This document shows, in pieces, positions 16,790 to 47,925 of a stretch of DNA of 64,000 nucleotides. Below the pieces are notes generated by a model. The model worked only from the letters and a program-made list of their open reading frames with translations, was not told the DNA's origin and did no database searches. Positions within the stretch are counted from its first letter, which is position 1; every line of letters starts with the position of its first letter. Position numbers and translations under genes: made by a program. Source of the DNA: Escherichia phage 121Q; sequence record NC_025447.1, one strand, 5' to 3'.

Positions 16790-17604
16790 GAATTTTAAAT
16801 ATGCTTAAATCTCTTCACGAAACAACCAAATTACATCAGGATGAAAAGTATCGTCGCAGCCTTACTAAAGATTTAGCATGTCGTATGTATATGCGTAGAT
16901 TTGAAATTTCAAGAATTGGTAAAGGCTGGGATGATGTAAATCGTGAAGACATTGATCCAGATGCAATTTTTAAAGCATACATGGCTAGAAAAGTTTTCAT
17001 AAATGAAAAAACTTTTTATATTGATAGTGATAGAGAATTAGAAAATAAATTTACAAAAGGTTTATGGAAGATATGGTGTGTTGAAGTATTCGGTGAAGTA
17101 TTACCTGAGCCACCTGTTCCAGAAACTTATAAAGATTTAAAAAGTATTTTTGATAATGAACATATACATTCAAATTTCTCATTATATGATACTGTGTCAG
17201 AAGCTGTATTTTATGGTGAGTTACATGGTCATAACAAATACTTTGATAGTATGGTTAGTTTTGATTTGTTTTGTCACTTGCCTGGTGTATCAAGTTGGAC
17301 ATGTGACCAACACAGAGCAAGTAAGATTGATAAGCGAAAATTCTCGGCCCAAAGATTTATGCAAGTTGCTATGAGTATGTATAAACTTGATTATCTTGGT
17401 TGTCCAGAACCATATAAACATTTTTGGAAAGAAAGAGCACAAAAATGTTTAAACTATTGTATAATCCGTTTAATGGACACATACATTCTTAAGTTTAGAA
17501 ATGCAACTGTATACGACATGCCTGAACCACCAAAGAATGAAAAATATCCACCTGTCAAGACATTTGTATGGTACAAGGATAAAAGTAACAAAAGGATGCA
17601 CTAA
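16786..17604 (+). CDS. hypothetical protein
   Basis: 272-aa ORF, ATGA overlap. Confidence 0.55.
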   Translation: MRILNMLKSLHETTKLHQDEKYRRSLTKDLACRMYMRRFEISRIGKGWDDVNREDIDPDAIFKAYMARKVFINEKTFYIDSDRELENKFTKGLWKIWCVEVFGEVLPEPPVPETYKDLKSIFDNEHIHSNFSLYDTVSEAVFYGELHGHNKYFDSMVSFDLFCHLPGVSSWTCDQHRASKIDKRKFSAQRFMQVAMSMYKLDYLGCPEPYKHFWKERAQKCLNYCIIRLMDTYILKFRNATVYDMPEPPKNEKYPPVKTFVWYKDKSNKRMH

Positions 17605-17620
17605 GGTGCGTCCTTTTTTT
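17593..17620 (+). terminator. intrinsic terminator
   Basis: GGATGCAC..GTGCGTCC hairpin followed by T7 run. Confidence 0.55.
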
Positions 17621-17631
17621 CTTTTCAGGTG

Positions 17632-17660
17632 TTGACATGTGTAGTCGAAGTATGTACAAT
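17632..17660 (+). promoter_or_regulatory. sigma70-type early promoter
   Basis: TTGACA, 17-nt spacer, TACAAT. Confidence 0.55.
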
Positions 17661-18837: not shown

Positions 18838-18866
18838 TTGACTATCATACGTGCTGCCCGTATAAT
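18838..18866 (+). promoter_or_regulatory. sigma70-type early promoter
   Basis: TTGACT, 17-nt spacer, TATAAT. Confidence 0.6.
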
Positions 18867-18914
18867 GTTTATCACAGAGCAGCACATCATATTAAATTAA
18901 ACGAGGAATACTAA

Positions 18915-20051
18915 ATGTCCGAGAAAGAAATCAATCCTAAAAAAGCATCCACCGCAGCTAAATCAGCAAAACGTACTACTAAAACTGCGACTAAAGGTCA
19001 TACAATTGATGCAAGTGATATTTTTAACCAAACTACAAAATCACTACCAGTACTGAAAGATGTTAAGGGAAATACTATGTCTCTAACAGTTCAAAACATC
19101 AATACTGTTGGTACAACTGCTGGTGCTGCTGTTGGGCGTTTGGCTGATGAAATTATGTCTAAAGTTAATGTAACGGATGACAATACCGAGTTTGGTAAAT
19201 CAATCACCACAATTCTTACGTTGACTCGTGCAGTTGATATTGATAGTCTTCAAGAAGATAAATCAATTGTTGGTCGTATTAAGAAATTCTTTGTTAATGC
19301 TCAACAGAAAGTAGGTGATCAGTACAAAAACAGTAAAGAGCAAATTGACGAAATTATGAAAACTCTTCAAACTGGTATTAATCGCCAGCACGGAGAATGT
19401 GAATGGCTTGATAAAGCATATAATGAAAACAAAGAATATTTGTTTGAATTGCGTGATACATTAGTTGGTTTAGAAGAAGTGACTAAAACACAAGATGCAT
19501 TATTAGTAGAAATGCAAGCAGACAAAAATGTAGACTCTTTTGCTATTCAAGAGCAAAAGATGATTTGTGAAGCACTTTCTAAACAAGAAGATAAGATTCG
19601 TCGTCTTATCATGATGTGCGAGCTAAGTGGTCCACGTTTGATGAGTATGAAAAAAGTAAACTTAAACACTGTTTCTAAGTTTGAAGATTTAAAATCTGTT
19701 GTTATTCCAGCATGGAAGTCTCAATTGGCTGAACAGTTAATTTCCGAGCGTCAACGTAAGGATAATGAACTAGGCAATCTGATTGATAATGAGACAAACC
19801 GTCTTTTGGAAACTAACTCTAAAATGGTTGCAGCAAATATGTTGGACGCAGCAAAGGCAAACAACCGTGGTATTGTGGATATTAAAACCTTGCGTAATGT
19901 ACATAAAACGATGATTGACAGTATTGAAGCAGTTATTGAAGAAGAGAAAAAAGGTAAATTGGAACGTGAACGTGCTAAACAGGAAATTGCACAACTTTCC
20001 TATGAACTGGAAGACACTCTTCGTGAAATTGCCGAAAAAGCTAACAAGTAA
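18915..20051 (+). CDS. hypothetical coiled-coil-rich protein
   Basis: 378-aa ORF after strong promoter and RBS. Confidence 0.6.
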   Translation: MSEKEINPKKASTAAKSAKRTTKTATKGHTIDASDIFNQTTKSLPVLKDVKGNTMSLTVQNINTVGTTAGAAVGRLADEIMSKVNVTDDNTEFGKSITTILTLTRAVDIDSLQEDKSIVGRIKKFFVNAQQKVGDQYKNSKEQIDEIMKTLQTGINRQHGECEWLDKAYNENKEYLFELRDTLVGLEEVTKTQDALLVEMQADKNVDSFAIQEQKMICEALSKQEDKIRRLIMMCELSGPRLMSMKKVNLNTVSKFEDLKSVVIPAWKSQLAEQLISERQRKDNELGNLIDNETNRLLETNSKMVAANMLDAAKANNRGIVDIKTLRNVHKTMIDSIEAVIEEEKKGKLERERAKQEIAQLSYELEDTLREIAEKANK

Positions 20052-20054
20052 TAG

Positions 20055-20083
20055 TTGACATATGAGTGCGTTTTTAATATAAT
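20055..20083 (+). promoter_or_regulatory. sigma70-type early promoter, embedded in terminator hairpin
   Basis: TTGACA, 17-nt spacer, TATAAT. Confidence 0.5.
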
Positions 20084-20106
20084 CTTATTGAAAACGCACT
20101 CTTTTT
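20064..20106 (+). terminator. intrinsic terminator
   Basis: GAGTGCGTTTT...AAAACGCACTC long hairpin followed by TTTTT. Confidence 0.5.
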
Positions 20107-20130
20107 AATGTACAGATAAGGAACTAACTT

Positions 20131-20820
20131 ATGAAACGTCGTCATATTAGTGTTGATATTGAAGCTCTTGGAACACCTGAACTTTCCGGTTATGATATTA
20201 TTATCCCAAATTACGCAGCAGTAGTAGTTCCAAGTAAACCTGAAAATGACATTCGTCAGTTCTTATATATTAAATTACCATACCAGGATCAAGTTGCTAC
20301 TGGTTTAAAATCAGACGCAGGTGCAATGGATTTTTGGATGAATACATGTCAGAAAGAATACCCTAATGCATATTCTGAAGTTGCCAGTACTATGAAACTC
20401 AAAGCACCTGAACTGTATGGACCGAATGGTCAATCACGACGATTTTTTGCATACAGTAGTATTGTTGATTTCTGGAAAGAATTACGTTACAATGATTATG
20501 GTGAAGAAGTTCCTCATTCAGTCTGGGGTAATGGATGTAACTTCGATTGTAGTATTTTACAAGCAAACCATTTAAAACTAATGAACGCTGGTGAGTTGTG
20601 GAAGTATGATGCACCTGAAAATGCACGCACATTGAAACGTTTATTGAATGAAGAAGCTCGTATTGAAATGGATGAAATCGTTTCGGTACAGTTGGATAAA
20701 TTTATCACATATGCAAATACGTGTGGGATTAATGGGTTGGAGTTACATCATCCACTATTTGATGCAGCACGTGAAGCAATCCAGATTTCATTCTGTCTAA
20801 ACAAGCTTAAAATGGATTAA
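20131..20820 (+). CDS. dexA: DexA-like 3'-5' exonuclease (DnaQ-like fold)
   Basis: 229 aa; Exo I-like SVDIEALG near N-terminus and HHPLFDA Exo III-like motif near C-terminus. Confidence 0.75.
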   Translation: MKRRHISVDIEALGTPELSGYDIIIPNYAAVVVPSKPENDIRQFLYIKLPYQDQVATGLKSDAGAMDFWMNTCQKEYPNAYSEVASTMKLKAPELYGPNGQSRRFFAYSSIVDFWKELRYNDYGEEVPHSVWGNGCNFDCSILQANHLKLMNAGELWKYDAPENARTLKRLLNEEARIEMDEIVSVQLDKFITYANTCGINGLELHHPLFDAAREAIQISFCLNKLKMD

Positions 20821-20823
20821 TAC

Positions 20824-21918
20824 ATGAATTTCATTATTCTGTTAATACCTGCTCTTATCGTTGTATTCGTTATGAAATACATGTACGATAAGCATATCAG
20901 TACTAAAGAACTATTGATTCATATTGGTTGTTGTCTGGTTGGTGCGGCTCTTGTTCTTGGTATTTCATACGCAATCAACTATAGCCAGCTTTATGATGTT
21001 GAGATTCTGAATGGTCAAGTAACTTCAAAATACAGCCACAAAGAATATTGCACACAATCTAGTTCATGTAAGCACTATACATGGCATGAGAAGTGCCATA
21101 CGCGATATGATAGTAAAGGTAAATCACATCGTGAGTGTGAATCATATAAGGTTTTTGATTACTCATATGAAGTTGATTGGTATGTGAAAAGTACAGTAGG
21201 TGAGTTTGAGATTGAACGTGTGAACCGTCAAGGTACAATGACACCACCACGATGGCAGCAAGTTATGATTGGTGACTATGCCGCAGCAGAGAGTTCATAT
21301 ATCAACTATCTATTTGCTGATAAGAACTCATTGTTTAGTCCTGAAGAACTACACAACATGTATGATGAAAAGTATCTTAGTACTATTCCAGAATACCCAA
21401 GTGTAGTTGATTATTACAAAACACATCACGTAATTAACACTACAAATTACAACGTTGATGGTTACGATGAATACCTTCGTAATGAGCTAAAAACGATGGG
21501 TGCACGTAAGCAGGTAAACATCCAAGTACTAGTATATGATTACAAAGATGTGGATTTTGTTGATGCTACCCTTGCATCGTGGCGTGGTGGTAAGAAGAAT
21601 GATGTTATTATGTTCTTTGGTATTGACAATGATGGTAACGTTGTTAAATTCAACAGTACATCATTTGCACAAGGAATGAAGAATGAAGATTTACATGCAA
21701 AGATGCGTATTGATGCATTAAATGAAAAATTAACTCTTGACTTACTAGTTAAAGAAGTACATAATATTGACGCACAGTTTGAGAGACTCTCTAATAAAGA
21801 GTTTGAGTACTTGTCAGTAAAAATGGAACCTAGAAAAGATGTTCTTATCGGTGCTTCCATTGTTTTGTTGATTCTGTCTATTTTCATTGGCCTTTATATG
21901 AGGGATAACGATTTATGA
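20824..21918 (+). CDS. membrane protein with N- and C-terminal TM segments
   Basis: Hydrophobic N-terminus MNFIILLIPALIVVFV and C-terminal VLIGASIVLLILSIFIGLYM. Confidence 0.6.
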   Translation: MNFIILLIPALIVVFVMKYMYDKHISTKELLIHIGCCLVGAALVLGISYAINYSQLYDVEILNGQVTSKYSHKEYCTQSSSCKHYTWHEKCHTRYDSKGKSHRECESYKVFDYSYEVDWYVKSTVGEFEIERVNRQGTMTPPRWQQVMIGDYAAAESSYINYLFADKNSLFSPEELHNMYDEKYLSTIPEYPSVVDYYKTHHVINTTNYNVDGYDEYLRNELKTMGARKQVNIQVLVYDYKDVDFVDATLASWRGGKKNDVIMFFGIDNDGNVVKFNSTSFAQGMKNEDLHAKMRIDALNEKLTLDLLVKEVHNIDAQFERLSNKEFEYLSVKMEPRKDVLIGASIVLLILSIFIGLYMRDNDL

Positions 21919-30482: not shown

Positions 30483-31343
30483 ATGAAACCTATCCGAGTA
30501 CTTTCTCTTTTTAATGGAATGAGTGTGGGATATATGGCATTGCAAGATGCTGGTATCCCAGTTGAAAAATATTATTCATCCGAAATTGATAAGTACGCAA
30601 TAGCTGAATCTCAATCTAACTTTCCTGATATTATCCAATTGGGTGATGTAACTAAGTGGAGAGAATGGGATATTGAGTGGGACAAAATAGATTTATTAAT
30701 GGGTGGTTTCCCATGCCAAGCCTGGTCAGTTGCAGGTAAACAGGGTGGTTTAAATGATATACGTGGGCAGTTATTTTTAGTAATGGTTGAAATTTTTGAT
30801 CATATCAAAAGTCTCAATCCTAACTTGAAATTTCTGTTTGAAAATGTTAAAATGAAGGAAGATTTCAAAGAATACATTAATAGTATTTTAGGAATCACGC
30901 CAGTACTGATAAACTCCCAGCATTATACGCCTCACTTCAGGCAGAGATATTACTGGTACAGTACTGATAAGCTTTTTATACCACCTGCATTATCCAATGC
31001 ACCTAAACTTCAAGATATTATTGAAGATGGTTGGTACACTGACAGAACCGCTTCGTACTGTATAGATGCTAACTATTTTAAAGGTGGTGATTGTAACCAG
31101 TACTTTAATAAATCCAGACGACAATTGGTGTTTCGTGATCCAGTGATTAATCGTCAATATCTATTAGAGAATGGCAAAAGAAATATTGACTATAGACACT
31201 TAAGTGTAGTAGAATGTTGTAAATTACAGGGTGTTCCTGAAGATTTCTTTAAAGTGTCTAGTAAGACACAAGCATACAAAATGCTTGGGAATGGATGGAC
31301 TATGCCAGTTATATCACATTTACTAAGAGAGATATTCTTTTGA
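30483..31343 (+). CDS. DNA (cytosine-5)-methyltransferase
   Basis: Motif I LFNGMSVG (FxGxG), motif IV GGFPCQAWSVAGK (PCQ), motif VI ENVK, C-terminal LGNGWTMPV (motif X-like). Confidence 0.8.
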   Translation: MKPIRVLSLFNGMSVGYMALQDAGIPVEKYYSSEIDKYAIAESQSNFPDIIQLGDVTKWREWDIEWDKIDLLMGGFPCQAWSVAGKQGGLNDIRGQLFLVMVEIFDHIKSLNPNLKFLFENVKMKEDFKEYINSILGITPVLINSQHYTPHFRQRYYWYSTDKLFIPPALSNAPKLQDIIEDGWYTDRTASYCIDANYFKGGDCNQYFNKSRRQLVFRDPVINRQYLLENGKRNIDYRHLSVVECCKLQGVPEDFFKVSSKTQAYKMLGNGWTMPVISHLLREIFF

Positions 31344-31825: not shown

Positions 31826-31830
31826 TTACA

Positions 31831-31855
31831 AATCCACGCATTGCGTGGATTTTTC
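31831..31855 (+). terminator. intrinsic terminator
   Basis: AATCCACGCATTGCGTGGATT hairpin followed by TTTT. Confidence 0.55.
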
Positions 31856-31867
31856 ATAGGTGCATAT

Positions 31868-32383
31868 ATGCCAATTCCTTATGTTAAAATTATTAATAAT
31901 ATTCTCGATTCATGGGAAGATGTTATTACTGGTAAAAAGCAACCATCACCAGTACATGCTTTATCTGGGAAACTTCAATTCAGAATGTCAAACCAAACTG
32001 AAACATTTAATAATCATGATATTTGCATTACATTAAAAACACCTATTAGTATTGTAATTAAAAAAAATAAAGATGATGAATTGACATTATCTATTGGTCG
32101 TGATAAAATCATTTTAAGTAATTTGTCTGAAGAAGAATTCTTTCAAAGAAGTACTATTATCGATATGAAAGATTTCACATATGAATCATTGGTTGAACTC
32201 AATACACGTTTTAACGATATTCAGGAACGATTGCGACCAATTCTTCGTATCGAAGAAGAAGCCTGGATTGAAAGTATTAGGAAGATGCAAGAAATGTTGA
32301 AAGAAAATATTAACAATCTGGGTAAAGCTACAATGGAATTTGGTAAAACTTTTAAACTGAACTTTTCAAAGGATCGTAAATGA
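31868..32383 (+). CDS. EE-x-FFQ-x-S motif family protein (member 8)
   Basis: EEEFFQRSTIIDMKDFTYESLVEL; track start 31841 is TTG inside the terminator hairpin, first ATG at 31868 with AGGTG RBS. Confidence 0.55.
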   Translation: MPIPYVKIINNILDSWEDVITGKKQPSPVHALSGKLQFRMSNQTETFNNHDICITLKTPISIVIKKNKDDELTLSIGRDKIILSNLSEEEFFQRSTIIDMKDFTYESLVELNTRFNDIQERLRPILRIEEEAWIESIRKMQEMLKENINNLGKATMEFGKTFKLNFSKDRK

Positions 32384-42185: not shown

Positions 42186-42595
<410 letters not shown>

Positions 42596-42599
<4 letters not shown>

Positions 42600-42630
42600 C
42601 TAAATAATTCAGTACTGAGGATATTAATAT
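42596..42630 (+). promoter_or_regulatory. degenerate copy of promoter cassette (copy 2)
   Basis: TTGACTAAATAATTCAGTACTGAGGATATTAATAT; -35 and spacer conserved, -10 degraded. Confidence 0.35.
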
Positions 42631-42656: not shown

Positions 42657-42694
<38 letters not shown>

Positions 42695-43056: not shown

Positions 43057-43809
<753 letters not shown>

Positions 43810-46988: not shown

Positions 46989-47272
46989 TGGAATTCATTG
47001 TTGCACCTGATGAACTTAAAACATTCACGTTCAGAGATAATAATAATTATCCTTATACAAATCATTCATTGAATTCATTACATGTTATTTCAATCATTGC
47101 ATCTGAATATAGAGATAATCCATGTATTGATTTTAAAACCACTGATGGTGAATATACATGGGTGATCCCAAAAGATAAATATAGTTATCAAGGGGCAGTA
47201 GATATTCGTGACTCGATTCTAAAACAAATCGAAGATGGAAATACTCATCCTAAACTAAAAACTCAGTACTGA
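46988..47272 (+). CDS. hypothetical protein
   Basis: 94-aa ORF. Confidence 0.5.
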   Translation: MEFIVAPDELKTFTFRDNNNYPYTNHSLNSLHVISIIASEYRDNPCIDFKTTDGEYTWVIPKDKYSYQGAVDIRDSILKQIEDGNTHPKLKTQY

Positions 47273-47285
47273 AATCGTTTAACCC

Positions 47286-47340
47286 GATAGCTTCTAGTCA
47301 GTACTGATTCCTCCTTATGTATAGAAGCTATCACTTTTTA
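47286..47340 (+). terminator. intrinsic terminator
   Basis: 11-bp stem GATAGCTTCTA...TAGAAGCTATC followed by ACTTTTTTA. Confidence 0.55.
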
Positions 47341-47505
47341 CGTATAATGATATTACCCTCAAATTCATTATATTCGTTACCCTCTAACAGTATCTTTTTA
47401 TTCCTCTTGGATGCTGTAATTTAGAAGTTGACATTTTAACTTCTTATATGTTATACTTAAGGCTGATTCAATGAATCGGCCTTTTTTCTTATATAGGTGA
47501 ATGCA

Positions 47506-47925
47506 ATGAGTTATTTGTTTACTTTAATTGATAAGTATGTTGACATTGTATACCGTCAAGTTTGTAGTGATACGTTTGAAACAAAAAACCCAATTAGAGA
47601 TGGAATTTTTGATGTTGCCGTTGGATCATTTTTGAATGGGTACACCGAGTCATTATACAACAGTAATAATATTTTTATTTCAGTTCAATCAAGGCATACA
47701 TCAGACTATGCTGTTAGCATTGATATTTGGGAAAATAATATAGAAATAGACATAACGGAACATACTAACATTTGTGTTGATGATACATTTAATCAATTAA
47801 CTGAAGAAATGTACTTGCAGTTGAATTTTGTACATGATCTTACAAATATCAGTTATGATACATTAAGGAAAATATGTTTTCTTAGTGGGGTGATTCGTAG
47901 TAATATGAGTAAGTATGGGAAGTGA
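47506..47925 (+). CDS. EE-x-FFQ-x-S motif family protein (member 18, divergent)
   Basis: TEEMYLQLNFVHDLTNISYDTLRKI; first ATG at 47506 (track start 47497 is GTG). Confidence 0.5.
   Translation: MSYLFTLIDKYVDIVYRQVCSDTFETKNPIRDGIFDVAVGSFLNGYTESLYNSNNIFISVQSRHTSDYAVSIDIWENNIEIDITEHTNICVDDTFNQLTEEMYLQLNFVHDLTNISYDTLRKICFLSGVIRSNMSKYGK

What the first reader, a model, noticed from the sequence alone, without database searches (positions are those of the whole stretch)
20055..20106. Promoter embedded in a terminator hairpin
The terminator after the 378-aa coiled-coil gene (GAGTGCGTTTT...AAAACGCACTC + TTTTT) overlaps a near-consensus TTGACA-17-TATAAT promoter for the dexA-like gene, so termination and re-initiation are coupled in about 50 bp. 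A similar arrangement occurs at 31831-31868, where the only long-ORF start is a TTG inside the hairpin.
Basis: seen in the sequence. Interest (0 to 1): 0.3.

Follow-up and report, generated by a model that had tools for sequence, protein, structure and literature searches.

The report
Promoter interleaved with a terminator hairpin
In this giant E. coli phage, a perfect host-type promoter is built into the stop signal of the preceding gene; this space-saving design is already known from T4-like phages as "PeSL" elements, so it is real but not a new kind of thing.

Summary
The window comes from an Asteriusvirus jumbo coliphage (PBECO4/G17 clade, 99.5% identity). The main observation holds. A perfect TTGACA-17-TATAAT (20055-20083) is interleaved with a 16-bp hairpin (20064-20101, -22 kcal/mol, z = -6.8) followed by T5 (20102-20106). 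It lies between a TelA-like gene and a 3'-5' exonuclease gene.

Both elements look functional. Consensus promoters are 13-fold enriched and 25 of 26 lie on the coding strand. The hexamers are unchanged in 13 Asteriusvirus genomes. The stem is kept through compensatory changes in JNE01 and was remodelled in phage A4. All 14 distant relatives have a plain terminator at this position and no promoter.

The predicted start (~20090) lies in the 3' arm. Upstream transcripts would carry the whole hairpin and stop; transcripts from the embedded promoter would lack the 5' arm and read on.

The "similar" site at 31831-31868 is only an ordinary terminator. It has no promoter, and an in-frame ATG at 31868 is the annotated start. 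The real second case is 47428-47487.

This design matches the PeSL composite promoter-terminators of T4-like phages. Just past the window, PBECO4 carries 10 copies of a KVP40-type PeSL cassette.

No transcript data exist. Verdict: a new member of a known kind, of modest interest.

The parts
18915..20051 (+). Upstream gene, TelA-like toxic-anion-resistance protein (378 aa). The hairpin would end its transcript.
   Evidence: ORF. Pfam PF05816, E = 1.8e-37. PHROG 5890 'tellurite resistance'.
18838..18866 (+). Promoter-like site TTGACT-17-TATAAT in front of the TelA-like gene. It is the likely source of the transcripts that meet the hairpin.
   Evidence: 11/12 match. It is intergenic, between ORF end 18829 and ATG 18915.
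20055..20060 (+). -35 hexamer TTGACA, 3 nt after the stop codon and 3 nt before the stem.
   Evidence: Unchanged in 13 Asteriusvirus genomes.
20078..20083 (+). -10 hexamer TATAAT. Its first two bases close the top of the stem and its last four lie in the loop.
   Evidence: Unchanged in 13 genomes.
20064..20101 (+). Terminator hairpin with a 16-bp stem and a 6-nt loop. The 5' arm (20064-79) fills most of the promoter spacer. The 3' arm (20086-20101) covers the predicted transcription start.
   Evidence: MFE -22.1 kcal/mol, z = -6.83. The same hairpin is annotated as an ARNOLD terminator in G17. 96% of cells pair, against 30-57% when the partner columns are slid, and 2 pairs show changes on both sides.
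20102..20106 (+). T5 tract, the expected RNA release site for transcripts coming from upstream.
   Evidence: A T-run is retained in all 13 Asteriusvirus variants.
20090..20091 (+). Predicted transcription start, 7-8 nt after the -10 hexamer (inferred, not measured). It lies inside the 3' arm.
   Evidence: Inferred from standard sigma70 spacing. RNA starting at 20090 has no terminator hairpin; the only predicted structure is a -2.6 kcal/mol element near the ribosome-binding site.
20131..20820 (+). Downstream gene, a 3'-5' exonuclease (229 aa) with Shine-Dalgarno AAGGA at 20118-22. It is the first gene of the unit driven by the embedded promoter.
   Evidence: ORF. PF16473, E = 1.5e-8. PHROG 255 'exonuclease', E = 5e-33.
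31832..31854 (+). It is an ordinary intrinsic terminator (ATCCACGC-ATT-GCGTGGAT plus a T-run) with no embedded promoter. The next gene starts at ATG 31868.
   Evidence: G17 annotates a terminator here and a coding sequence starting 43 nt after the upstream stop, which corresponds to window 31868.
47428..47487 (+). The genuine second composite in the window. TTGACA (47428-33), 18-nt spacer, TGt-TATACT (-10 at 47452-57), then hairpin AAGGCTGATTC-AAT-GAATCGGCCTT (47459-83) and a T-run (47482-87). The predicted start (~47464) lies inside the 5' arm.
   Evidence: z = -5.47. Conserved in 6 divergent genomes, with a compensatory swap in JNE01. RNA from the predicted start no longer forms the hairpin.
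17590..17660 (+). Comparator showing the ordinary tandem layout: terminator 17590-17617, a 14-nt gap, then promoter TTGACA-17-TACAAT at 17632-60.

Best explanation
This is a composite promoter-terminator, the same design as a PeSL, at the boundary between two early transcription units of an Asteriusvirus jumbo phage.

Host sigma70 RNA polymerase transcribing the TelA-like gene, probably from the promoter at 18838, would copy the whole inverted repeat 20064-20101. The RNA folds into a 16-bp hairpin directly followed by U5, and transcription would terminate at about 20102-20106.

The same DNA carries a perfect TTGACA-17-TATAAT. The -35 lies just upstream of the stem, the 5' arm fills the spacer, the -10 sits at the top of the stem and in the loop, and the predicted start (~20090) is in the 3' arm. 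RNA made from this promoter would therefore contain only the 3' arm, could not form the hairpin, and would read through the T-tract into the exonuclease operon (20131 onward, to the next terminator at 22479-97).

The net effect would be a one-way reset. Expression of the downstream genes would depend on their own promoter and not on upstream read-through, at a cost of only about 11-15 extra bases compared with relatives that have a terminator alone.

What is shown: both motifs are present, they exceed chance, and they are conserved. What is inferred: actual termination, the exact start site, and the immunity of the promoter's own transcripts.
For: Promoter.
- It is a 12/12 match, in a window where consensus promoters occur 26 times against 2.0 expected, 25 of them on the coding strand.
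- Counting spacers of 16-18 nt, there are 33 strong promoters on the + strand and 2 on the - strand.
- Both hexamers are unchanged in 13 Asteriusvirus genomes, including JNE01/Turkey5, whose flanking region is only 74% identical to the window, while the spacer and loop vary.

Terminator.
- The fold is -22.1 kcal/mol with z = -6.83.
- G17 annotates the hairpin as a terminator.
- JNE01/Turkey5 change two stem-base pairs on both sides (GAGTGCG/CGCACTC to AAGGTGCG/CGCACCTT). ph0011 has an A-to-G change that keeps a G.U pair. Turkey3 turns a U.G pair into C-G.
- Phage A4 has a remodelled hairpin (ATGTGCCCATT-GTAT-AATGGGCACAT plus ATTTTATT) that still sits inside an intact TTGACA-17-TATAAT.
- All 14 distant TelA loci (RaK2, CBB/GAP32-like and IMG/VR contigs, 44-52% amino-acid identity) have a canonical terminator in the same spacer and no promoter scoring 10/12 or better.

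Immunity of the promoter's own transcripts.
- RNA from 20090 has no terminator hairpin.

Same design elsewhere.
- Site 47428-47487 is conserved and shows covariation.
- Ten copies of the cassette AAAAGGGTTGAC-TTCG-GTCAGCCC-TTTTTGC-TATAAT lie in the 50 kb of PBECO4 that continue past the window.
- That cassette is 81.6% identical over 49 nt to a KVP40 element. PeSLs were described in the KVP40/nt-1 pair (PMC4122927).
- PeSL promoter and terminator activities were shown with reporter constructs in RB49/phi1 (PMC2839356).
Against: - There are no transcript 5' or 3' end data for any Asteriusvirus. The literature searches found none.
- The covariation rests on few independent events: one lineage with two compensatory pairs, plus A4. 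Only 2 of 15 pairs change on both sides, and 38 of 500 shuffles reach that count.
- The stem is long and its upper half is A/U-rich, which is atypical compared with the short GC-rich terminators of relatives.
- Upstream polymerases still cross the whole promoter before they terminate, so the layout does not protect the promoter from occlusion.
- As a class, strong promoters in the window are not significantly more structured than random 60-nt windows (Mann-Whitney p = 0.065). The overlap is therefore not a general property of these promoters.
Confidence: 0.75

Rival explanations
1. The inverted repeat is a DNA operator. A dimeric phage or host repressor binds the two arms that flank the -10 hexamer and switches the exonuclease promoter off. 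The T-run is incidental.
For: The arms bracket the -10 and the start site, as operators often do. The repeat is perfect over 11 bp.
Against: - The arm sequence occurs nowhere else in the 64-kb window beyond chance (20 matches at up to 2 mismatches against 15.3 expected; the only exact copies are the two arms themselves).
- In JNE01 the arms change by compensatory substitution rather than being conserved in sequence. ph0011 has a G.U-compatible change that breaks the DNA symmetry. A4 replaces the arms altogether while keeping the pairing and the T-run.
- Distant relatives have unrelated hairpins plus T-runs at the same place and no promoter.
- The arm centres are about 27 bp apart, which is awkward for a dimer binding one face of the helix.
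Confidence: 0.06
2. The hairpin is an RNA processing or stability element, for example an RNase III target or a block to 3' exonucleases at the end of the TelA-like mRNA. It is not a site where the polymerase terminates.
For: The 16-bp stem is longer than typical terminators. The PBECO4 record annotates a T7-like protein kinase said to regulate RNase III positively (gp319).
Against: The stem is followed immediately by a T-run that is kept in all 13 variants, including the remodelled A4 version. Positional homologues in 14 distant phages are textbook terminators. 16 bp is short for RNase III. A hairpin that terminates transcription would also stabilise the 3' end, so the two roles do not exclude each other.
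Confidence: 0.1
3. The promoter match is non-functional, either a chance match or a relic. The element is just a terminator, and the exonuclease gene is expressed by read-through.
For: No start-site data exist. The region upstream of the -35 is coding sequence, not the A-rich tract seen before many other promoters in the window.
Against: The match is 12/12 with the optimal 17-nt spacer, where about 2 matches at up to 1 mismatch are expected in 128 kb of both strands. The strand bias is 25:1. The hexamers are unchanged in 13 genomes while 10 of 17 spacer positions, the loop and the stem base vary. Spacing stays at 17-18 nt except in the unverified CMSTMSU record. With an efficient terminator directly upstream, the three downstream genes would otherwise have no promoter.
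Confidence: 0.05
4. True mechanistic coupling. After intrinsic termination at 20102-06, host RNA polymerase stays on the DNA ('recycling termination'), slides the roughly 15-50 bp back to the embedded promoter, rebinds sigma70 and re-initiates. Upstream transcription would then feed the downstream promoter.
For: Single-molecule work reports that bacterial RNA polymerase can remain on the DNA after termination and re-initiate at the nearest promoter (PMC11347151). Here the release site and a consensus promoter lie within 50 bp. The overlap is kept across the genus.
Against: Nothing in the sequence tests this. The ordinary tandem layout (17590-17660) exists alongside the overlapped one. Genome compaction alone explains the overlap.
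Confidence: 0.15

Closest known systems
PeSLs (promoter-early stem-loops), the composite promoter-terminator motifs of T4-like phages RB49/phi1, T4/PST and KVP40/nt-1 (Arbiol et al. 2010, PMC2839356; Comeau et al. 2014, PMC4122927)
   Same: [quoted passage not shown]
- It has a near-perfect sigma70 TTGACA-N17-TATAAT.
- A stable stem-loop overlaps the promoter. 'Overlapping the -10 box' is one of the two commonest PeSL layouts.
- The proposed role is the same: stop upstream transcription and restart it.
- In RB49/phi1, reporter assays showed strong promoter activity, and termination comparable to rrnB T1.
- The same phage genome carries a repeated cassette, 10 copies in 50 kb, that is 81.6% identical over 49 nt to a KVP40 element.
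   Different: - The element at 20055-20106 is unique in sequence. Its arms are not repeated and share nothing with the repeated cassette or with site 47428.
- It separates two conserved genes (TelA-like and exonuclease) rather than flanking variable orphan genes, and no insertion or deletion is associated with it among Asteriusvirus genomes.
- It has no A/T-rich tract before the -35.
- The host phage is a RaK2-like jumbo phage (Asteriusvirus), not a member of Straboviridae.
- The recombination and mini-circle behaviour of PeSLs was not tested here.
Ordinary tandem arrangement of an intrinsic terminator followed by a promoter at operon boundaries
   Same: It has the same two functions and the same order of events. 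A textbook example lies 2.4 kb upstream in the same window (17590-17617, then 17632-60).
   Different: Here the two signals share the same 52 bp. The terminator's release site lies downstream of the promoter's start site, so which RNA gets terminated depends on where that RNA began.
Terminators following the TelA-like gene in RaK2, GAP32/CBB-like jumbo phages
   Same: They occupy the same position, directly after the homologous gene. All are hairpins followed by a T-run.
   Different: They are short GC-rich stems flanked by A and T tracts, and they contain no sigma70 consensus. By parsimony, the promoter is an addition specific to Asteriusvirus.

Membership tests
Intrinsic (Rho-independent) terminator | A stable G+C-containing RNA hairpin directly followed by a U-tract on the transcribed strand, downstream of a stop codon | tested here: met
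   16-bp stem with 5 G-C pairs at its base, -22.1 kcal/mol, z = -6.83, and T5 starting at the next base. It begins 13 nt after the TelA-like stop codon.
Intrinsic (Rho-independent) terminator | Base pairing, rather than sequence, is conserved among relatives | tested here: met
   96% of cells pair, against 30-57% in the slid controls. Two pairs change on both sides, and there are G.U and U.G-to-C-G changes. A4 has a remodelled stem. The number of independent events is small.
Intrinsic (Rho-independent) terminator | RNA 3' ends and polymerase release at the U-tract | not testable with these tools
   No transcript data were found for this phage group.
Sigma70-dependent (phage early) promoter | -35 TTGACA and -10 TATAAT separated by 17 +/- 1 bp, on the strand of the downstream gene | tested here: met
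   12/12 match with a 17-nt spacer, 48 nt upstream of the ATG.
Sigma70-dependent (phage early) promoter | The motif class exceeds chance and is conserved | tested here: met
   26 matches against 2.0 expected, 25 on the + strand. The hexamers are unchanged in 13 genomes.
Sigma70-dependent (phage early) promoter | A mapped primary 5' end 6-8 nt downstream of the -10 | not testable with these tools
   The start at 20090/91 is inferred from spacing rules only.
PeSL (promoter-early stem-loop cassette) | A sigma70 consensus promoter and a stable stem-loop combined in one intergenic element bounded by a stop codon and a Shine-Dalgarno/ATG | tested here: met
   The layout matches the published subclass 'stem-loop overlapping the -10 box'.
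PeSL (promoter-early stem-loop cassette) | A repeated motif family: many copies sharing sequence over about 100 bp and a consensus stem-loop | tested here: not met
   For this element the arms are unique in the window. Only 2 of 33 strong promoters carry a strong hairpin, and those two hairpins are unrelated in sequence. A different cassette in the same genome does meet the criterion (10 copies in L038).
PeSL (promoter-early stem-loop cassette) | An A/T-rich tract containing the stop codon upstream of the -35 | tested here: inconclusive
   The stop codons TAA and TAG abut the -35, but the preceding bases are coding sequence (GCTAACAAGTAATAG). The A-runs seen before other promoters in the window are absent.
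PeSL (promoter-early stem-loop cassette) | Location in hyperplastic regions, flanking orphan genes that differ between close relatives, with recombination between copies (mini-circles) | tested here: not met
   Both flanking genes are conserved across Asteriusvirus and as far as RaK2 and CBB. No insertion or deletion occurs at this spacer within the genus. Mini-circle formation cannot be tested here. At site 47428, homology to relatives does break next to the element.

The most novel reading that the evidence does not exclude
The overlap may do more than save space. Because E. coli RNA polymerase can stay on the DNA after intrinsic termination and re-initiate at the nearest promoter (PMC11347151), a consensus promoter placed within 50 bp of the release site could capture terminating polymerases. 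Upstream transcription would then drive, rather than merely be insulated from, downstream initiation.

A second element supports a broader reading. Asteriusvirus and RaK2-like jumbo phages carry an unreported set of PeSL-type cassettes, one of them about 82% identical to a KVP40 (Straboviridae) element. Together these would point to composite promoter-terminators as a regulatory module that spreads between phage families.
Probability: 0.15. Interest if true: 0.5.

Novelty: new member of a known kind. Interest (0 to 1): 0.3.

Why it matters
The element gives a compact, testable example of a start-site-dependent terminator. The same 52 bp would stop RNA that began upstream and pass RNA that began inside it.

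It extends the PeSL concept from T4-like phages to Asteriusvirus. Hits to the repeated cassette in RaK2-like and GAP32/CBB-like records suggest it may reach those jumbo phages too, though those hits were not inspected. No promoter, start-site or PeSL description for Asteriusvirus was found in the searched literature.

In practice it helps define transcription units in phages that are about 80% 'hypothetical protein'. It also offers a natural 50-bp insulator-plus-promoter part for synthetic biology.

It does not reveal a new mechanism.

Tried and rejected
- **Shared operator.** I searched for the arm sequence elsewhere in the window and found only chance-level matches. Rejected.
- **Known RNA family.** An Rfam scan of 19800-20400 at E up to 1 found nothing.
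- **Hairpins as a general feature of these promoters.** MFE z-scores of 33 strong promoters against 150 random windows gave p = 0.065. Only 20055 and 47428 stand out. This is not a class-wide feature in the window.
- **Transcript data.** The phAPEC6 paper contains no promoter, terminator or RNA-seq content. The search 'Asteriusvirus + transcriptom*' returned nothing relevant.
- **Locus search with a single protein.** The first related-loci run with the TelA-like protein returned only the phage itself. An alignment query was needed to reach relatives.
- **Mycoplasma transcriptome paper (PMC4245973).** I checked it for promoter-in-terminator cases and found nothing relevant.
- **Source of the A4 hairpin.** I looked for a copy elsewhere in the window as a possible recombination donor and found none.
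Rejected as an analogue: it has no promoter, and an ATG start is available and annotated.
- **Terminator on the minus strand.** The reverse strand of the hairpin is followed by ATATGT, not a T-run (read), so the terminator is not bidirectional.

Full report
**Identity of the window.** Bases 19000-21500 match 20 Asteriusvirus jumbo coliphages at 99.3% identity or better, including PBECO4, G17, phAPEC6, slurp01 and SP27. More distant members of the genus match at 74-94%. Nearly all genes in the region lie on the + strand.

**The observation at 20055-20106.**
- The sequence reads TAA(stop)-TAG-TTGACA-TATGAGTGCGTTTTTAA-TATAAT-CTTATTGAAAACGCACTC-TTTTT.
- As RNA the hairpin folds at -22.1 kcal/mol, z = -6.83, and none of 200 dinucleotide-preserving shuffles folds as well.
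- The -35 hexamer lies 3 nt upstream of the stem. The 5' arm fills the spacer. The -10 hexamer straddles the top of the stem and the loop.
- The T5 tract follows the stem immediately.
- G17's depositors annotated the same 38 nt as an ARNOLD-predicted terminator, but annotated no promoter.

**Is the promoter more than chance?**
- TTGACA-N17-TATAAT with up to 1 mismatch occurs 26 times in the window against 2.0 expected, and 25 of the 26 are on the + strand. Seven are perfect matches, including this one.
- Allowing spacers of 16-18 nt gives 33 strong sites on the + strand and 2 on the - strand.
- Sigma70-type early promoters are therefore a real class here, as reported for the related phage CBB (PMC5259590).

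**Flanking genes.** The upstream gene is TelA-like (PF05816, E = 1.8e-37; PHROG 'tellurite resistance'). The downstream gene is an Rv2179c-like 3'-5' exonuclease (PF16473; PHROG 255 'exonuclease').

The local transcription map reads as follows:
- terminator 17590-17617
- promoter 17632, then a 375-aa ORF
- promoter 18838, then the TelA-like gene
- the composite element at 20055-20106
- the exonuclease gene and two further ORFs
- terminator 22479-97

**Comparative evidence within the genus.** I extracted the spacer between the TelA-like and exonuclease genes from 12 further Asteriusvirus genomes and aligned all 13.
- TTGACA and TATAAT are present in all 13. The spacer is 17 nt, except 18 nt in ph0011 and 15 nt in CMSTMSU, a record flagged UNVERIFIED_ORG.
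- The T-run is always present.
- JNE01 and Turkey5 change two stem-base pairs on both sides (G-C to A-U and A-U to G-C).
- ph0011 has an A-to-G change that leaves a G.U pair.
- The Turkey3 group converts a U.G pair to C-G, with a matching one-base shortening of both arms.
- On the consensus structure 96% of cells pair, against 30-57% when the 3' partner columns are slid. Only 2 of 15 pairs show changes on both sides and the independent events are few, so the covariation signal is real but modest.
- Phage A4 is the most telling case. Its spacer is TTGACA-TATAAATGTGCCCATTG-TATAAT-GGGCACAT-ATTTTATT. This is a shorter, largely different hairpin (ATGTGCCCATT / AATGGGCACAT) that again lies inside an intact promoter, with its 3' arm now overlapping the -10.

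**Comparative evidence outside the genus.** An alignment-based locus search recovered 14 loci whose TelA C-terminal halves are 44-52% identical to the window's: RaK2, CBB and GAP32-like IMG/VR contigs. Every one has a canonical GC-rich hairpin plus T-run in the spacer after the gene. None has a sigma70 match of 10/12 or better. The terminator is therefore ancestral at this position. By parsimony, the promoter was added in Asteriusvirus. The spacer grew only from about 66-68 nt (RaK2, CBB) to 79 nt.

**Mechanism (inferred).**
- A sigma70 start 7-8 nt after the -10 falls at 20090/91, inside the 3' arm.
- RNA from upstream contains both arms and folds at -22.7 kcal/mol.
- RNA beginning at 20090 has no hairpin. 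Its only predicted structure is a -2.6 kcal/mol element near the ribosome-binding site.
- The terminator should therefore act on upstream transcripts and be invisible to the embedded promoter's own transcripts.
- Upstream polymerases still cross the promoter before release, so the layout insulates the downstream genes without shielding the promoter from occlusion.
Bacterial 'recycling termination' makes it conceivable (PMC11347151).

**Rival explanations.**
- An operator for a DNA-binding protein is unlikely. The arms are unique in the window. They evolve by compensatory and G.U-compatible changes. They are replaced in A4. Distant relatives have unrelated hairpins in the same place.
- An RNA processing or stability role cannot be excluded. 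It is compatible with termination rather than an alternative to it.
- No Rfam family matches the region.

At 31830-31854 there is a good terminator (ATCCACGC-ATT-GCGTGGAT plus a T-run). No promoter-like match of at least 9/12 overlaps it. The ORF lister reports TTG 31841 only because it takes the first possible start codon. ATG 31868 is in the same frame, follows AGGTG, and is the start annotated in G17. This site is an ordinary terminator followed by a ribosome-binding site and an ATG.

**A genuine second case in the window.** Of 18 terminator-like hairpins on the + strand, three lie within 60 bp of a strong promoter:
- 17590/17632, the ordinary tandem layout with a 14-nt gap;
- the element under study;
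- 47428-47487.

At the third site the layout is TTGACA-18-(TGt)TATACT, followed 1 nt later by AAGGCTGATTC-AAT-GAATCGGCCTT and a T-run (z = -5.47). The predicted start (~47464) lies in the 5' arm, and RNA from there no longer forms the hairpin. The -10, hairpin and T-run are conserved in six divergent genomes. JNE01 carries a GATTC/GAATC to GAATC/GATTC swap. Homology to relatives breaks off close to this element.

As a class, however, promoters in the window are not significantly more structured than random windows (p = 0.065).

**Comparison with what is known.** Arbiol et al. 2010 and Comeau et al. 2014 described PeSLs in T4-like phages. These are intergenic cassettes that combine a near-consensus sigma70 promoter with a stem-loop. 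The stem-loop most often lies between the -35 and -10 or overlaps the -10. It acts as a terminator for upstream transcription. Reporter assays demonstrated both activities. The element here works like a PeSL of the '-10 overlap' subclass.

It fails two defining features of the PeSL family. It is not a repeated sequence family, and it is not associated with variable orphan genes. I therefore do not file it as a PeSL family member.

**PeSL-type cassettes in the same genome.** I fetched the 50 kb of PBECO4 that continue past the window's 3' end (L038).
- It holds 10 copies of stop-codon-AAAA(G)GGTTGAC-TTCG-GTCAGCC(C)-TTTTTG(C/T)-TATAAT...SD...ATG.
- In this cassette the -35 sits in the 5' arm of a UUCG-loop terminator and the T-run lies in the spacer.
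- Most copies lie in a stretch of short annotated ORFs (roughly 40-200 aa).
- blastn with the 52-nt cassette finds 703 places in 182 phage records. These include all the Asteriusvirus genomes listed (6-9 places per complete genome), RaK2-like and GAP32/CBB-like phages, Aeromonas phages and KVP40-like vibriophages.
- The KVP40 copy reads AAAAGGGTTGAC-TGCG-GTCAGCCC-TTTCGCG-TATTAT, between two ORFs. It fits the published KVP40/nt-1 PeSL consensus A3-4G3-loop-C3T3-4.
- No paper in the searchable library mentions PeSLs in Asteriusvirus or RaK2-like phages.

**Verdict.** The cited analogue site is wrong, and a better one exists at 47428. The element is a new member of a known kind, a PeSL-like composite promoter-terminator. 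All functional claims remain inferences until transcript ends are mapped.

Noticed in passing
window, 30 sites (e.g. 42201, 42680, 43439, 47264, 47299, 60629, 60967); also L038: The 8-bp palindrome CAGTACTG occurs 30 times against 0.68 expected, and 46 times in the adjacent 50 kb. Its core AGTACT occurs 145 times against 21.5 expected in the window, and 213 against 17 in L038. 21 of the 30 window copies lie inside ORFs. Several fill promoter spacers just before the -10 or overlap the -35, and one sits in a conserved hairpin loop. Its role is unknown; a regulator site, a modification target or a recombination signal are possibilities. A Dcm-like methylase gene lies at about 30483-31343.
   Followed up: partly
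window 47428-47487: A second promoter-terminator composite. The terminator hairpin starts 1 nt after the -10, so the predicted start site falls inside the 5' arm. It is conserved in six divergent Asteriusvirus genomes with a compensatory swap in JNE01.
   Followed up: yes
L038 (PBECO4 NC_027364.1 138700-188690, reverse strand; continues the window past 64000); copies at reverse-complement positions 1567, 4809, 4992, 6569, 7658, 11856, 12780, 14570, 45650, 49270: A repeated PeSL-type cassette, AAAAGGGTTGAC-TTCG-GTCAGCCC-TTTTTGC-TATAAT, has 10 copies in 50 kb, each lying between ORFs (several directly after a visible stop codon), mostly in a stretch of short ORFs. Related copies occur in 182 phage records, including KVP40-like vibriophages. 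There is none inside the window.
   Followed up: partly
window 42187-42214, 42666-42694, 43425-43453 (and a partial copy near 42596-42617): A near-identical promoter module, (A)GTACTTGACTAAATAGTTCAGTACTG(A)TATAAT, is repeated three to four times in the tRNA cluster. One copy ends 10 nt before tRNA-Ser (43464). The module contains an imperfect stem-loop over the -35 and the CAGTACTG palindrome.
   Followed up: no
window 47287-47330: A conserved long hairpin, GATAGCTTCTAG...CTAGAAGCTATC, with CAGTACTG in its loop, followed by CACTTTTT and a TATAAT-like box. It lies in the same 225-bp spacer as the 47428 composite. It is present in 5 of 6 relatives, deleted in ph0011, and followed by an 85-nt insertion in A4.
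   Followed up: no
window 47150-47750 compared with relatives: Homology to the BF17/Turkey3 group ends about 30 nt into the gene downstream of the 47428 composite. In JNE01 and Turkey5 only the spacer itself (window 47257-47497) is alignable. This suggests gene replacement bounded by the regulatory spacer, as proposed for PeSLs.
   Followed up: no
window 18838-18885: The promoter of the TelA-like gene (TTGACT-17-TATAAT) is also spanned by a weaker stem, GTGCTGC...GCAGCAC, with the -10 in the loop but no T-run (z = -2.05).
   Followed up: no
L038 19142-31401 (PBECO4 gp286-gp296): Ten of the eleven consecutive genes in this stretch are annotated 'regulator of chromosome condensation' (RCC1-like). 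They lie on the opposite strand to their neighbours.
   Followed up: no
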